Shown: one piece after another, positions 52,831 through 57,231 of the stretch
How positions within the stretch are numbered: position 1 is the first letter of the stretch
Layout of the letters: each line of letters begins with the position of its first letter
From: Escherichia phage vB_EcoM_VR20
DNA length: 64,000 nucleotides
Reading direction: 5' to 3' (one strand)
Sequence record: NC_028894.1
Notes under the pieces: model-generated
The model's database searches: none
What the model saw: the letters and a program-made list of their open reading frames with translations, nothing else
Told to the model about the DNA's origin: nothing
Program-made: the position numbers and the translations under genes

Positions 52831-53619
52831 ATGGCAATTGTAGGTGTTCCTGGTTGGATTGGACAATCTGCCGTAGATGAAACGGGACAACGTTGGATGG
52901 ATGCCGCTATGCGCGATGTGCGAGTTGCAGTACCCGGTTGGATGGGGTCGATGGCAGGACAATCAAAAGAAATTTATCTATCTATAGGGGCTAATAACTC
53001 TTATGATAGAAACTCCCTTATTAACTGGATGAGGGCTCAAGGTGGTGCGCCTGTAGTTATTACAATCACCGGTAACTTAGTATCCAATAGCACCGGTAAC
53101 GCTTGTTTGGAATTTCCTAGCAATCTTCCTAACGCGTATATTCAACTTATCATTAATAGCGGTGTGACTGTTTATGGCCGAGGAGGTAATGGTTCTACTA
53201 ATGGTTCGGCAGGTGGAAACGGTGGTACAGCTATCCATAACGCAGCCGGAACTAAACTCCGTATTCGTAATAACGGCGCTATTGCCGGTGGTGGCGGTGG
53301 CGGTGGCGCAGTATCATTGCAAAATAGCTACCCGACTAATGGTACATGCGGTGGTGGTGGTGGTAGACCATTTGGCGTAGGTGGCAAAATAGGCTCTGAC
53401 GCTATATTGTCCGGTTCGAATGCGTCTTTAACAGCTGCCGGTACAGGTGGTGCTACAGTCCAATATGGTGGAGGTAATGGCGGTAACGTTGGAGCTGGCG
53501 GTGGACGAGGATGGGGCAAAAATGTTTATACCTCTGCAGGTGGCTCAGCTGGTGCTGCTGTCACTGGCAATGCTCCTAACTGGCAAAACGTAGGAACTAT
53601 TTACGGCTCAAGAGTCTAG
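52831..53619 (+). CDS. 38: gp38 receptor-recognising adhesin, T2/T6 type
   Basis: 262 aa; conserved N-terminus MAIVGVPGWIGQSAV.ETGQRWM, poly-glycine blocks, C-terminal GTIYGSRV. Confidence 0.75.
   Translation: MAIVGVPGWIGQSAVDETGQRWMDAAMRDVRVAVPGWMGSMAGQSKEIYLSIGANNSYDRNSLINWMRAQGGAPVVITITGNLVSNSTGNACLEFPSNLPNAYIQLIINSGVTVYGRGGNGSTNGSAGGNGGTAIHNAAGTKLRIRNNGAIAGGGGGGGAVSLQNSYPTNGTCGGGGGRPFGVGGKIGSDAILSGSNASLTAAGTGGATVQYGGGNGGNVGAGGGRGWGKNVYTSAGGSAGAAVTGNAPNWQNVGTIYGSRV
53287..53307 (+). repeat. GGY codon microsatellite encoding poly-Gly inside gene 38
   Basis: ggtggtggcggtggcggtggc seen directly. Confidence 0.6.
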
Positions 53620-53656: not shown

Positions 53657-54310
53657 ATGGAACCAAAAGTAGGAATCTCAATACCCGACCTACTTTTTGG
53701 ACTTCTTGATAGAATTTTTAAAGATAATGCAACCGGGAAAGTTGTCTTTTCCCGGGTACTAGTTATTGTTCTATTATTTTTAATGGCGGTAATCTGGTAT
53801 AAAGGTGATGCAATTTTAGATGCGTATAGGGATGCTTCATATGCCTCGTACACAGAAATGATAAGGCAAGACCAGGATAACAGATTTAAAATTGCAGCTA
53901 TCGAGCAAATCCAGATAGTTCACTCATCAAGCGGAGCAGACTTTACAGCGATATATTCCTTTAGACCAACTAACCTTAACTACTTCGTGGATATGGTGGG
54001 GTACGAGGGGATATTACCTGAATCAGTTGACGAAAAAAATTTGGGTGGGTTTCCAATAGATAAGACTTCAGCGGAATATTTGGCGGGGGTTAATGGTAAT
54101 TATTTTGAATCCGGCACGGAATCTGTATTCTTACCAACAAAGAAAAAAAGCAGCTTCGAATATATGTTCAGCTGCCCATTCTTTAATTTGGAAAACGTTT
54201 ACGCAGGCACAGTCTCGTTGTACTGGTATAAGCAAAAACCCGACCTTAGTTTTGATAGGCTTTCTGCTATGTGTGGGCAAGCAGGTCGTACGCTCGGGCG
54301 TACACGTTAG
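53657..54310 (+). CDS. t: Holin T
   Basis: 217 aa (T4 218); single N-terminal transmembrane helix; LFG.LDR.FKDNATGKV matches recalled T4 T. Confidence 0.88.
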   Translation: MEPKVGISIPDLLFGLLDRIFKDNATGKVVFSRVLVIVLLFLMAVIWYKGDAILDAYRDASYASYTEMIRQDQDNRFKIAAIEQIQIVHSSSGADFTAIYSFRPTNLNYFVDMVGYEGILPESVDEKNLGGFPIDKTSAEYLAGVNGNYFESGTESVFLPTKKKSSFEYMFSCPFFNLENVYAGTVSLYWYKQKPDLSFDRLSAMCGQAGRTLGRTR

Positions 54311-54582
54311 AATCCGGAGGTATACATCATCAGATATCGGTGTATATCTTCGAATCCTTCGTTAAATTGTTCAATGATTTGTTCAATTTCATCTTCAGAT
54401 AAACTTTTAAACAACTTGTTAAACGATACATTGTTTAACTCATTACCATTCTCATTCCTTAATCCCAACTCATTCAAAAACGCGATAAACACATCACGCT
54501 TCATCGTAATATCTTCCCGGTCGGTTTTAATCAAAATAGATGTAACGGTAACAATTTCAGAAACGATTTCAAATTTAGTCAT
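54307..54582 (-). CDS. asiA: Anti-sigma-70 protein AsiA
   Basis: 91 aa (T4 90); ..VTSILIK..REDI....FIAFLNE.G and FNEGFE..HRYL.MYT match recalled T4 AsiA. Confidence 0.82.
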   Translation of the reverse strand: MTKFEIVSEIVTVTSILIKTDREDITMKRDVFIAFLNELGLRNENGNELNNVSFNKLFKSLSEDEIEQIIEQFNEGFEDIHRYLMMYTSGF

Positions 54583-54622: not shown

Positions 54623-54805
54623 AGTAAGGATATTGTACTATTATTCCTCTGGGTTGTACACATGATTTTCCATCTGTACAACATATGTCTGATACATATC
54701 TTCAATTGGTTCCTGGAACTTAAAATCAGCTCCAAGGAATTCCTCAAAGCAAGCTTGCTCGCGTGTACGCTGACCAGTAACGGTGTTCTCTAAGTTATGA
54801 CTCAT
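54623..54805 (-). CDS. Small hypothetical protein, 60 aa
   Basis: ATG overlaps the arn stop (ATGA); open frame found by hand, not in the ORF track. Confidence 0.3.
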
Positions 54806-55098
54806 ATGTTATTCCCCATTTCAATATAATCTTCTAGACCAAAATCATCGATTTCTTCTTGGATTTCTCTTAAAATTTGTTCTTCATCTAAGCCAGCGCC
54901 AAAGGTCACTTTAACATAACCGGGACGTTCACTAGAGAACCGAATTGTGTATTCCGGTTGGATATAGCCAAAACTACTATCCAAATCACAAAGAATTTCT
55001 GCATAGATTTCGTCGCCGACATCAGCATGAATTTTAAAAAGTTCATCAATGAGAATAACTAGTTCAGTTGCTTTGTACGTATGGAGTTTAGTAATCAT
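54802..55098 (-). CDS. arn: Putative Arn, anti-restriction nuclease
   Basis: 98 aa, strongly acidic, next to asiA as in T4; not sequence-verified. Confidence 0.45.
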   Translation of the reverse strand: MITKLHTYKATELVILIDELFKIHADVGDEIYAEILCDLDSSFGYIQPEYTIRFSSERPGYVKVTFGAGLDEEQILREIQEEIDDFGLEDYIEMGNNI

Positions 55099-55207
55099 AG
55101 CCTTTACCCTTGTGTTTCTGCTTGCGATTGGATTCTTTAAAGTTTTTCTTCTTGTCCTTATGGACAGACGCCTTATTGAAATCGTGCTTAGCTACCAAAT
55201 TGTTCAT
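55088..55207 (-). CDS. Lysine-rich micro-ORF, 39 aa
   Basis: MNNLVAKHDFNKASVHKDKKKNFKESNRKQKHKGKGYDY; TTGAGGAAATTAC Shine-Dalgarno; overlaps flanking genes in other frames. Confidence 0.3.
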   Translation of the reverse strand: MNNLVAKHDFNKASVHKDKKKNFKESNRKQKHKGKGYDY

Positions 55208-55469
55208 GTAATTTCCTCAATTGATATTCCAAAGAGCTAATAATTTCTTTATTAGTAGCAATATACATATCACGTAAAAATGGTTTTAAGCCGTTCATAA
55301 TTTTGTGAATATTATCAGGAGAAATATGGTTTATATATTCGTGGTCTAAAGCATCCCAGGCGGGTTGGTTAACATAAGTTCCCCAGTTATCTTCCATCAT
55401 AGCATTCAGACGTTTGATATGATTAATATGACCTTCGATTGCATCAATCTGGAGTTGTTTAAGGTTCAT
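55188..55469 (-). CDS. Hypothetical protein (arn to motA island)
   Basis: 93 aa, ATG start. Confidence 0.5.
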   Translation of the reverse strand: MNLKQLQIDAIEGHINHIKRLNAMMEDNWGTYVNQPAWDALDHEYINHISPDNIHKIMNGLKPFLRDMYIATNKEIISSLEYQLRKLHEQFGS

Positions 55470-55951
55470 TAGTAAAGGTCCTCTGAATAAAGTTCGTCTT
55501 CGCGTCCACCACGTTCAATACGTACCTGGCCTGCATAAGTAGCAATAATCATGGCTTCTTTACGAGTCCAATAATTGCTGTATTGGTCGATAAATCCTTG
55601 GTCGTCACCACATACCTGACATGAAACCACTTTGTCTTCAACTGCATCCAATACTGCAGCCATGTCTTTAGAATAATGACGAGCACCCGGAATAACGAGT
55701 GTTCCACCTTCCTTTAATTTAAAACGGTTCGCTGCTGAAACAATACGTCGTTGGAATTTCTGGTCATTACACCAGTACCCGAGTTCCCAACAGATTTCTG
55801 GGACTTCATCCAGGACATCTTGTTCTGTATATTCACCACCATAAGAAGCTAATTTAGCAGCCAGACTTTCAGGAGTCTCGCGTGACAGAGCCTTATCTAA
55901 CAGAGCTAAACGTTCTTCAAAGGATAATTCTTTACCTTTTAATGGATTCAT
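55469..55951 (-). CDS. Hypothetical protein
   Basis: 160 aa; ATGA overlaps on both sides. Confidence 0.5.
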
Positions 55952-56622: not shown

Positions 56623-57231
56623 TCACTTTAAGATGTTAATAACATGTTGAATGTTTTCAGTTGACATAACGTTGTCAATGTAGGTATTCAATCCACCCAC
56701 TTTAACGCTAAATCCCACGTCTGTAAACTGTTTTACTATCTTTTGTTCAGTATTATACGCATGCACGCGAATCTGACCATCACGACGAACATCAATCTGT
56801 TTTAATGTCTTGACACGCTTGAACTTCACAATCAGATTGCTGCGGTCTTCTGAAATGCTCTTAAAGTCAATACCAATAGACAACAATTGCTCTTTGATAT
56901 ATTCTGCAGTCGCTTCCATTTCATCAGTCACACCGCGTTTTGTTCTTGTCTTCTTCACTTCCAGAAGGTCGGGATTATTTTCATTCGCCCAAAGTTCAGC
57001 TGCATCCAGAATAAGGTCAACACCTTTTTCTGTAACCATCAAACCATCACCAGAAGCTTCAACATAGTTGTTATTCAACAATGTCTGTACGCTATCAATT
57101 GATGTGTTCTGCTGGTCTAAAACAACCTCTGGACTCACAAAGTTGTTTTTGTATACAAACACCAGAGCATTGACATCAGTCTCATGCAGCGCGTTCTGGG
57201 AGCATTTAACGATATAATTTAACTTGTTCAC
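56623..57231 (-). CDS. motA: Middle transcription activator MotA
   Basis: 202 aa (T4 211); matches recalled T4 MotA (..ASGDGL..TEKG.DLI..AAELWA.EN.P.LL). Confidence 0.85.
   Translation of the reverse strand: MNKLNYIVKCSQNALHETDVNALVFVYKNNFVSPEVVLDQQNTSIDSVQTLLNNNYVEASGDGLMVTEKGVDLILDAAELWANENNPDLLEVKKTRTKRGVTDEMEATAEYIKEQLLSIGIDFKSISEDRSNLIVKFKRVKTLKQIDVRRDGQIRVHAYNTEQKIVKQFTDVGFSVKVGGLNTYIDNVMSTENIQHVINILK

What the first reader, a model, noticed from the sequence alone, without database searches (positions are those of the whole stretch)
55088..55207. Lysine-rich 39-aa micro-ORF overlapping two genes
A peptide with 13 Lys/Arg of 39 residues has a strong Shine-Dalgarno (GAGGAAATTAC). It overlaps the 3' end of the upstream gene and the first codons of arn in different frames. 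Such basic peptides can bind nucleic acid or ribosomes.
Basis: seen in the sequence. Interest (0 to 1): 0.35.

Follow-up and report, generated by a model that had tools for sequence, protein, structure and literature searches.

The report
Conserved tiny basic phage gene (DUF7230)
The 39-codon ORF is a real protein-coding gene kept under purifying selection in well over a thousand T4-like phages, already catalogued as an uncharacterised family (Pfam DUF7230) but missing from the phage T4 reference annotation; what it does is still unknown.

Summary
The ORF is on the minus strand at 55088..55207 and encodes MNNLVAKHDFNKASVHKDKKKNFKESNRKQKHKGKGYDY. A GAGGA Shine-Dalgarno ends 7 nt before the ATG. 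The ORF overlaps the stop of the arn.2-like gene by 20 nt and the start of the arn-like gene by 11 nt, in different frames. It has 11 Lys and 1 Arg (12, not 13) plus 3 His.

Length alone is not remarkable: the window holds 428 ORFs of 39 aa or more, against about 307 in shuffles. Conservation is what shows it to be a gene:
- It matches Pfam DUF7230 (49 bits, cut-off 27) and PHROG 1359 over its full length.
- At E<=1e-5 it occurs once each in 1181 phage genomes, about as many as carry AsiA (1090).
- In relatives found through neighbouring genes, all 21 third-codon positions vary, against 8 and 7 of the first and second (pS 0.68, pN 0.13).
- All 12 asiA-anchored loci carry it; one copy is frameshifted.

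It is annotated "hypothetical" in RB3 and P479 but not in the T4 or VR25 RefSeq records. The first 21 residues also occur fused to acidic tails in rV5-like and T5-like phages.

No relation to ArfA, any solved structure or any Rfam family was found. AlphaFold2 gives no fold.

Function is unknown. My best guess is a disordered host-targeting peptide.

The parts
55088..55207 (-). Coding sequence of the 39-aa micro-protein, a DUF7230 / PHROG 1359 family member: MNNLVAKHDFNKASVHKDKKKNFKESNRKQKHKGKGYDY
   Evidence: The ORF is listed. It matches Pfam PF23876 at E 5.9e-13 (49.2 bits, cut-off 27) and PHROG 1359 at E 4.9e-23 over positions 1-39 of 39. The peptide is identical to the annotated P479 protein QWQ55875.1. 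The coding signature in this frame is shown.
55214..55218 (-). Shine-Dalgarno GAGGA; the GAGG core ends 7 nt before the ATG
   Evidence: Read directly from the sequence. Relatives carry AAGGAAATTAC or GAGAGG upstream of their start codons.
55145..55207 (-). Codons 1-21: the conserved N-terminal module, MNNxVAK(H/N)DFN(K/R)AxxHxD(K/R)K(K/R). This is the part shared with the acidic-tailed relatives.
   Evidence: Invariant or near-invariant residues N3, V5, A6, K7, F10, N11, H16, D18 and K20 in 95 sequences. The same module heads 52-99 aa proteins in rV5-like and T5-like phages.
55106..55126 (-). Codons 28-34: the second conserved motif, RKQKHKG, in the basic tail. It is specific to the T4-like form.
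   Evidence: R28 and K29 are conserved in at least 90% of 95 sequences, and K31, H32 and K33 are invariant. The motif is absent from the acidic-tailed forms.
55188..55469 (-). Upstream arn.2-like gene (93 aa). Its last 20 nt overlap the micro-ORF start in another frame.
   Evidence: PHROG 1844, E 1.2e-40. The RB3, T4 and P479 annotations show the same gene order.
54802..55098 (-). Downstream arn-like gene (98 aa). Its first 11 nt overlap the micro-ORF end (TATGATTACTAA).
   Evidence: PHROG 8202, E 2e-44. Weak match to PHROG 3151 'inhibitor of MrcBC restriction', E 6.4e-5. Weak BLASTP match to T4 Arn.

Best explanation
This is a genuine small protein-coding gene of the arn/asiA operon of a T4-like phage (Tevenvirinae, Gaprivervirus-like). 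It belongs to the catalogued but uncharacterised family DUF7230 / PHROG 1359.

Shown:
- The reading frame is conserved under purifying selection.
- The gene occurs as a single copy in about as many phage genomes as carry AsiA.
- It is packed against its neighbours with short overlaps and has its own Shine-Dalgarno, so it is most likely translated from the polycistronic arn transcript.
- The peptide is polycationic and has no predicted stable fold.

Inferred, with my probability about 0.3-0.35 that this general mechanism is right: the product is an intrinsically disordered host-takeover peptide made early or in the middle period of infection.
- Its near-invariant 21-residue N-terminal motif (NxVAKHDFNxAxxHxDxK) would dock onto a host macromolecule conserved across gamma-proteobacteria.
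- Its charged tail (KESNRKQKHKGK in T4-like phages) would add affinity for a polyanionic surface, most plausibly RNA or the ribosome.

The target and the phenotype are unknown. The confidence value given here refers to the gene identity, not to this mechanism.
For: Family membership:
- Pfam DUF7230 at 49.2 bits against a cut-off of 27; all 20 diverse members tested hit it.
- PHROG 1359 matched over its full length.
- NCBI names a fragment 'DUF7230 family protein'.

Prevalence:
- tblastn at E<=1e-5 finds 1181 phage records, one place each, 1179 of them near full length.
- AsiA is found in 1090 records, with near-identical counts per host genus.
- The exact T4-type peptide is seen on 919 contigs.
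- About 299 clusters at 90% identity match the family profile.

Coding signature:
- In 15 distinct sequences from loci anchored on neighbouring genes, codons 14-34 give pS 0.68 and pN 0.125.
- In those codons, third positions vary in 21 of 21 columns, against 8 of 21 and 7 of 21 for first and second positions.
- The two other sense frames give pN/pS of about 1.9-2.0.
- Antisense frames carry stops in 12 to 25 of 25 relatives.
- All 12 asiA-anchored loci carry the ORF.

Operon context:
- The order arn.4-arn.3-arn.2-(arn.1)-ORF-arn-asiA.1-asiA is seen in RB3, T4 and P479.
- In T2 the arn genes form one abundant middle transcript (bioRxiv 10.64898/2026.06.19.733364).

Disorder and charge:
- AlphaFold2 gives pLDDT 69.8 and pTM 0.29, with only two short helices.
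- pI 10.1, net charge +7.8.

Docking-motif idea:
- The same N-terminal 21 residues are kept while the tail is basic in T4-like phages and acidic in rV5-like and T5-like phages.
- The conserved positions are mostly not basic residues: N, V, A, D, F, N, H, D.
Against: - There is no direct evidence of translation. No Ribo-seq or mass-spectrometry data were found, and trypsin would cut this peptide into very small pieces.
- No function can be transferred. Every named homologue is 'hypothetical', no fusion to a known domain exists, and no solved structure is related.
- Gene neighbourhood outside Tevenvirinae is not conserved, so association with neighbours gives nothing.
- One relative (L045) carries a frameshifted copy, so the gene is probably dispensable at least under some conditions, unless that is an assembly error.
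- The acidic-tailed relatives weaken the RNA/ribosome part of the inference.
- The pS and pN values are uncorrected proportions over related sequences.
Confidence: 0.88

Rival explanations
1. The peptide is a counter-defence (anti-restriction or anti-immunity) factor. In this reading it binds and blocks a host defence protein, as the 26-aa T4 Stp peptide or its neighbour Arn do, and it is kept in the arn operon for that reason.
For: In Tevenvirinae the gene sits immediately upstream of arn, or of asiA.1 where arn is missing. Arn inhibits McrBC, and the T2 study suggests that the other arn-operon genes could also be counter-defence genes. Small early phage proteins are often anti-defence factors (general knowledge). 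One frameshifted copy would fit an accessory role that depends on the host.
Against: Defence systems are patchy among strains, whereas this gene is nearly universal and highly conserved across T4-like phages of Escherichia, Klebsiella, Yersinia, Serratia, Proteus and Aeromonas. That pattern fits a conserved core host target better. Outside Tevenvirinae the gene is not linked to arn. Phages without arn keep it (L019, L020, L036). No anti-defence homology was found.
Confidence: 0.2
2. The peptide is an ArfA/ArfT-like ribosome factor. In this reading its basic tail enters the empty mRNA channel of ribosomes stalled on cleaved mRNAs, or otherwise binds the 30S subunit. This would rescue or reprogramme ribosomes during infection, when host and early phage mRNAs are being cut.
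For: Size and composition resemble ArfA's active part and the 40-aa ArfT, which was itself unannotated and has a KKGGSTNKK tail (PMC6299226). The window peptide ends in KHKGKGY, compared with ArfA's KKGKGSY. hhalign lays residues 12-35 of the peptide on ArfA residues 26-48 with 35% identity. Arf-type factors arose independently several times and are hard to find by homology.
Against: The similarity is not significant: hhalign probability 0.3-0.5%, E 0.11-0.23. No family member hits Pfam ArfA (PF03889) even at E<=10. A profile search of PDB sequences, which include ArfA chains, finds nothing at E<=10. The GKG of the window peptide is not conserved in the family; position 34 onward varies. rV5-like and T5-like relatives replace the basic tail with an acidic one. 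The ArfA profile used was shallow, built from Enterobacteriaceae sequences of at least 80% identity.
Confidence: 0.1
3. The ORF is only a translational-coupling bridge or leader. In this reading, translating it brings ribosomes from arn.2/arn.1 to the arn start, and the peptide itself has no function.
For: There are overlaps at both ends, 20 nt upstream and 11 nt downstream, and the same tight packing is seen in all relatives inspected. The last residues of the peptide change with the identity of the downstream gene: YDY before arn, YES before asiA.1.
Against: A bridge needs no amino-acid conservation. Here the amino-acid sequence is strongly constrained while all synonymous sites drift. The same peptide family also occurs in unrelated gene contexts in Proteus, Klebsiella, Citrobacter, rV5-like and T5-like phages.
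Confidence: 0.04
4. The ORF is not a gene: it is a chance ORF, the mirror image of a gene on the plus strand (the 63-aa ORF at 55049..55240), or a structured RNA element.
For: ORFs of this size are common by chance (428 in the window against about 307 in shuffles). The T4 and VR25 RefSeq records do not annotate it. A 63-aa plus-strand ORF overlaps it.
Against: The frame-specific selection signature. Antisense frames are interrupted in 12-25 of 25 relatives. There is no Rfam match below E 0.9 and no excess RNA folding (z +0.58). All surrounding genes are on the minus strand. The hydrophobic plus-strand ORF is what the reverse complement of Lys codons (AAA/AAG to TTT/CTT) produces.
Confidence: 0.02

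Closest known systems
Pfam DUF7230 (PF23876) / PHROG 1359: uncharacterised 37-46 aa proteins of T4-like phages, such as RB3_253, P479 QWQ55875.1, VR7ORF270c and JS10_0247
   Same: The window peptide matches over its full length and above the curated threshold. It is identical to the P479 protein. [quoted passage not shown]
   Different: Nothing of substance; the window copy is an ordinary member. In the window phage arn.1 is absent, so the ORF abuts arn.2 directly.
Acidic-tailed DUF7230 relatives (PHROGs 5724, 4586, 15229) in rV5-like (about 145-157 kb) and T5-like (Epseptimavirus) phages
   Same: They share the N-terminal module MRN(F/Y)VAK(H/N)DFNRAxxHxD(K/R)K, they are small, and they are also uncharacterised.
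   Different: Their tails are acidic and 30-60 residues long, and they lack the RKQKHKG motif. Their gene neighbourhoods are different.
ArfA (PF03889) and ArfT, small lysine-rich alternative ribosome-rescue factors
   Same: About 40-55 aa of active peptide, a disordered and lysine-rich tail, a KGKG(S)Y-like string in the window copy, and a history of being missed by annotation.
   Different: There is no significant sequence relation. The KGKG string is not conserved in the family. There is no sign of an ArfA-type regulatory hairpin with non-stop expression. The conserved part is the N-terminal motif, which has no ArfA counterpart.
T4 Stp and other very small early phage peptides that act on host proteins
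   Same: A tiny, basic peptide of an early or middle phage operon that contains a known anti-restriction gene (general knowledge; context).
   Different: No sequence comparison was made. Stp is sporadic and targets a strain-specific system, whereas DUF7230 is near-universal in T4-like phages.

Membership tests
Pfam DUF7230 (PF23876) / PHROG 1359 | Score above the curated Pfam gathering threshold | tested here: met
   49.2 bits against a cut-off of 27, E 5.9e-13, residues 2-37.
Pfam DUF7230 (PF23876) / PHROG 1359 | Full-length match to the 39-position PHROG 1359 profile | tested here: met
   E 4.9e-23, positions 1-39 of 39.
Pfam DUF7230 (PF23876) / PHROG 1359 | The family's invariant residues are present (N3, K7, N11, K31, H32, K33; near-invariant V5, A6, F10, H16, D18, K20, R28, K29) | tested here: met
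   All are present in the window peptide, judged on an alignment of 95 family members.
Pfam DUF7230 (PF23876) / PHROG 1359 | Encoded by large virulent phages and not by bacterial chromosomes | tested here: met
   All named homologues are from phages. A scan of 185,579 species genomes for the VAKHDFN(K/R) codon pattern gave 28 hits. My own estimate of the chance expectation is of that order (not a tool result). None of the 28 scored above 18 bits against the family HMM, whereas true members score 39-80 bits. Only this exact motif was scanned.
ArfA (PF03889), alternative ribosome-rescue factor A | Significant sequence or profile similarity to ArfA | tested here: not met
   No PF03889 hit for any of 20 members at E<=10. 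hhalign probability 0.3-0.5%. The PDB profile search found nothing.
ArfA (PF03889), alternative ribosome-rescue factor A | Conserved KGKGS motif in the C-terminal tail | tested here: not met
   The window copy has KGKGY, but the family consensus is RKQKHKG followed by variable residues (KKK, KKD, KGN, KVK and others).
ArfA (PF03889), alternative ribosome-rescue factor A | [quoted passage not shown] | not testable with these tools
   This needs biochemistry or cryo-EM.
Regulatory leader or coupling ORF whose peptide is irrelevant | Fixed position upstream of one regulated gene, with little constraint on the peptide sequence | tested here: not met
   The peptide is strongly constrained (pN/pS 0.18), and the downstream gene differs among lineages (arn, asiA.1 or unrelated genes).
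Arn (McrBC inhibitor, PHROG 3151), applied to the downstream gene that the finding calls 'arn' | Significant similarity to T4 Arn | tested here: inconclusive
   The best family is PHROG 8202 (unknown function). PHROG 3151 is matched weakly but nearly end to end (E 6.4e-5). BLASTP to T4 Arn gives 31% identity over 36 aa, E 1e-4 for that single comparison.

The most novel reading that the evidence does not exclude
DUF7230 could be a near-universal host-takeover micro-protein of T4-like phages, with cousins in rV5-like and T5-like phages, that acts directly on the host translation apparatus. One possibility is that it occupies the mRNA channel or another rRNA site of ribosomes left on cleaved mRNAs, in an ArfA/ArfT-like way. 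That would make it a candidate for the T4-induced ribosome alterations described in the old T4 literature (general knowledge; not checked here). It has been overlooked because the T4 reference annotation lacks the gene.
Probability: 0.08. Interest if true: 0.75.

Novelty: already known. Interest (0 to 1): 0.3.

Why it matters
The result is mainly an annotation point.
- A 39-codon gene as widespread among T4-like phages as asiA is absent from the T4 (NC_000866) and VR25 RefSeq records.
- It is also not mentioned in a 2026 study of the arn operon.
- Proteomic and genetic work based on those annotations therefore cannot see it.

Its very strong conservation points to a conserved host target worth testing experimentally. 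So does the reuse of its 21-residue N-terminal motif in three large groups of virulent enterobacterial phages. As a discovery it is modest: the family is already catalogued (DUF7230, PHROG 1359), and nothing here establishes a function.

Tried and rejected
**ArfA homology.** This started as a resemblance recalled from memory. My recalled ArfA sequence was confirmed against PDB entry 5h5u. hhalign of two family profiles against ArfA, as a single sequence and as a 20-sequence profile, was not significant. The Pfam ArfA model was not hit. The ArfA profile was shallow, because the search lists only the 120 closest homologues.

**Solved structures.** Searches with the single sequence and with two profiles gave no hits at E<=10.

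**NCBIfam.** No match.

**AlphaFold2.** With a 95-sequence alignment it gave no fold (pLDDT 69.8, pTM 0.29). I therefore ran no fold search, since matches to such a model would be meaningless.

**Structured RNA.** Rfam gave nothing below E 0.9. Folding was no better than shuffles (z +0.58).

**Promoters.**
- Sigma-70-like sites were at the chance level.
- No MotA-box middle promoter pattern lies near the operon.

**Association with neighbouring genes.** Neighbours are not conserved outside Tevenvirinae. No fusion to a known domain appeared among 178 acidic-tail relatives.

**Literature.** Nothing was found for DUF7230, for the peptide's motifs, or for T4 Ribo-seq.

**ArcZ pairing at the micro-ORF start.** The T4 arn.2 3' end pairs with ArcZ (-26.3 kcal/mol; 0.4% of shuffles do as well). 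The window does not (-19.5 kcal/mol; 20% of shuffles do as well).

**Tool limits.** I worked around this with alignments and degenerate DNA patterns.

Full report
**Observation**

The window carries a minus-strand ORF at 55088..55207: ATG, 39 codons, TAA. It encodes MNNLVAKHDFNKASVHKDKKKNFKESNRKQKHKGKGYDY.

- The string GAGGAAATTAC precedes the ATG. Its GAGGA is at 55214..55218, and the GAGG core ends 7 nt before the start.
- The ORF overlaps the last 20 nt of the upstream gene (55188..55469) and the first 11 nt of the downstream gene (54802..55098), each in another frame. In effect it fills an 89-nt gap between two genes.
- The peptide has 11 Lys, 1 Arg and 3 His, with pI 10.1 and net charge about +7.8.
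- An ORF of this length is not unusual by itself. The window holds 428 ORFs of 39 aa or more, and shuffles give 307 +/- 12. Its K+R fraction is, however, the highest of the 205 ORFs of 39-60 aa.

**Where we are**

The region is the asiA-arn-motA block of a T4-like phage.

- The nearest relatives are Gaprivervirus phages: VR25 at 97% and P479 at 87% DNA identity.
- On the minus strand the order is MotA-like (my reading of the 202-aa ORF at 56623..57231; not run through a family search), two arn.4-region genes, arn.3-like (55469..55951), arn.2-like (55188..55469), the micro-ORF, an arn-like gene (54802..55098), asiA.1-like (54641..54805) and asiA (54307..54582; Pfam AsiA, E 8e-21).
- Holin t and a gp38-type adhesin lie on the plus strand (compare).
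- The downstream "arn" is only a distant relative of T4 Arn. Its best match is PHROG 8202. It matches PHROG 3151 weakly (E 6e-5), and is 31% identical to T4 Arn over 36 aa.
- The window lacks arn.1, which in T4 and RB3 sits between arn.2 and the micro-ORF.

**It is a real, conserved gene**

Family membership:
- The peptide matches Pfam DUF7230 (PF23876) at 49.2 bits against a cut-off of 27.
- It matches PHROG 1359 end to end (E 5e-23).
- It is identical to the annotated hypothetical protein QWQ55875.1 of phage P479, and is seen on 27 contigs.
- The T4-type version, 36 of 39 residues identical, is seen on 919 contigs.

Prevalence:
- tblastn at E<=1e-5 finds it in 1181 phage records, once per record, and 1179 of these are near full length.
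- AsiA is found in 1090 records, with nearly the same numbers per host genus: Escherichia 556 against 548, Shigella 79 against 79, Yersinia 32 against 31.
- A profile search of 5.8 billion proteins finds 299 clusters. Every one that carries a name is a phage "hypothetical protein".

A first sample used 25 distinct nucleotide versions found through a degenerate motif pattern.
- The ORF frame has pS 0.71 and pN 0.18.
- The two other sense frames give pN/pS of about 1.5-1.6.
- The antisense frames contain stops in 12, 14 and 25 of the 25 sequences.

That sample was ascertained through the peptide itself, so I repeated the test on loci anchored on neighbours (asiA or the whole region).
- In 15 distinct sequences, codons 14-34 lie outside both overlaps and outside the search pattern. 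They give pS 0.68 and pN 0.125.
- There, 21 of 21 third positions vary, against 8 and 7 of 21 first and second positions.
- The other two frames give ratios of 1.9-2.0.
- All 12 asiA-anchored loci contain the ORF just upstream of asiA.
- One locus (L045) has an internal deletion of about 17 nt that breaks the frame.

So the proposed refutation was looked for and essentially not found. The values are uncorrected proportions over related sequences.

**Alternatives to a coding gene**

- There is no Rfam match below E 0.9.
- RNA folding is no better than shuffles (z +0.58).
- The 63-aa plus-strand ORF (55049..55240) is the hydrophobic mirror image of the Lys codons and is interrupted in relatives.

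**Annotation status**

The ORF is annotated as hypothetical in RB3 (RB3_253), P479, VR7, JS10, RB68 and T2. It is not annotated in the T4 reference NC_000866, where it lies intact in the gap between arn and arn.1. It is also not annotated in the VR25 RefSeq record. A 2026 preprint lists the T2 arn operon as arn.4-arn.3-arn.2-arn.1-arn, one abundant middle transcript stabilised by the host sRNA ArcZ, and does not mention this ORF (bioRxiv 10.64898/2026.06.19.733364).

**Anatomy of the family**

- Across 95 members, N3, K7, N11, K31, H32 and K33 are invariant. V5, A6, F10, H16, D18, K20, R28 and K29 are conserved in at least 90%.
- This gives two motifs: an N-terminal module NxVAK(H/N)DFN(K/R)AxxHxD(K/R)K, and RKQKHKG in the tail.
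- The last residues follow the overlapping downstream start: YDY before arn, YES before asiA.1.
- The N-terminal module alone heads 52-99 aa proteins with acidic tails. These occur in rV5-like phages of about 145-157 kb and in T5-like Epseptimavirus phages, where the gene lies in the early region near thymidylate synthase and RNase H.
- No member is fused to a known domain.
- A scan of 185,579 species genomes for the motif's codon pattern gave 28 hits. My own estimate of the chance expectation is of that order, and none scored as a family member.
- Gene neighbourhood is conserved only within Tevenvirinae.

**Function**

- AlphaFold2 with the 95-sequence alignment gives no fold: pLDDT 69.8, pTM 0.29, two short helices.
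- No solved structure is related at E<=10.
- I tested one specific lead, a resemblance to ArfA ([26 protein letters not shown]...RKGKH). The recalled ArfA sequence is exact, but profile comparisons are not significant (probability 0.3-0.5%, E 0.11-0.23).
- Pfam ArfA is not hit by any member, and the window's KGKGY is not conserved in the family.
- ArfT shows that 40-aa lysine-rich rescue factors can be unannotated and unrelated in sequence (PMC6299226). An ArfA-like way of working is therefore not excluded, but nothing supports it, and the acidic-tailed relatives speak against a tail-driven mechanism.

**Best reading**

Shown: this is a conserved, selected, single-copy micro-gene of the arn operon with its own Shine-Dalgarno and short overlaps, encoding a polycationic peptide without a stable fold.

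Inferred: the peptide is translated from the middle transcript. Its near-invariant and mostly non-basic N-terminal motif would dock onto a host component conserved across gamma-proteobacteria, and the charged tail would add affinity for a polyanionic surface, perhaps RNA or the ribosome. I give this general mechanism about 0.3-0.35.

Rivals:
- a counter-defence peptide (0.2);
- a specifically ArfA-like ribosome factor (0.1);
- a mere coupling ORF (0.04);
- not a gene (0.02).

**Verdict**

The ORF is an ordinary member of an already catalogued family of unknown function, so novelty is low. The points worth keeping are that the T4 reference annotation misses a gene as widespread as asiA, and that its 21-residue motif is shared by three groups of virulent phages.

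Noticed in passing
L003 (T4 NC_000866.4, about 161580-161700); L002 (VR25 NC_028925, locus 988-1107): The reference annotations of T4 and of VR25, the window's closest relative, leave this intact 39-codon ORF unannotated in the gap next to arn. RB3, P479, VR7, JS10 and RB68 annotate it.
   Followed up: yes
L012, L015, L018, L013, L078:3501-3713; proteins P0063, P0095, P0304, P0344, P0345: The N-terminal 21-residue module (MRNFVAKxDFNRAxxHxDxK) is reused with acidic tails of 30-60 residues in rV5-like phages (about 145-157 kb) and in T5-like (Epseptimavirus) phages. No known domain is attached.
   Followed up: partly
window 55188-55230 compared with L003 (3' end of T4 arn.2): The T4 arn.2 gene ends in GCCAGGGAAA, a perfect 10-nt complement to the 5' end of processed ArcZ (duplex -26.3 kcal/mol; 0.4% of shuffles do as well). 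This fits the T2 preprint. The window phage lacks this site, the intergenic region (70 nt in T2 by the preprint) and arn.1; its arn.2 runs straight into the micro-ORF start (-19.5 kcal/mol; 20% of shuffles do as well).
   Followed up: partly
L045:2110-2220 (IMGVR_UViG_2974741249_000001): One relative has an internal deletion of about 17 nt (removing FNKASV) that frameshifts the micro-ORF. This is either a pseudogene or an assembly error. The contig is also about 15 kb shorter than its relatives.
   Followed up: no
window 54802-55098 (-): The gene the finding calls 'arn' is only distantly related to T4 Arn. Its best match is PHROG 8202 of unknown function, and it matches the McrBC-inhibitor PHROG 3151 weakly (E 6e-5). 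Some relatives (L019, L020, L036) lack it altogether, and there the micro-ORF overlaps asiA.1 instead.
   Followed up: partly
window 55049-55240 (+): A 63-aa hydrophobic ORF lies antisense to the micro-ORF. It is the mirror image of the Lys/Asn codon run (AAA/AAG read as TTT/CTT), and its frame is interrupted by stops in many relatives.
   Followed up: yes
L006, L030, L031, L032, L042-L044: Several relatives start the micro-ORF with GTG instead of ATG, behind the same AAGGAAATTAC Shine-Dalgarno. T4-type phages instead have GAGAGG about 12 nt upstream, a longer spacing, and a 26-nt overlap with arn.1, which suggests coupling to arn.1 there.
   Followed up: no
L026:2895-4250: In one metagenomic phage contig the family member sits between two ORFs that look to me, by eye, like a DprA/SLOG-like protein (185 aa) and a nucleotidyltransferase, possibly of the CCA-adding type (232 aa). 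Neither was checked with a family search.
   Followed up: no
window 52831-53619 (+): The 262-aa ORF upstream of holin t is glycine-rich (GGGGGG runs). I read it as the T2/T6-type gp38 adhesin and not the T4-type gp38 assembly chaperone.
   Followed up: no
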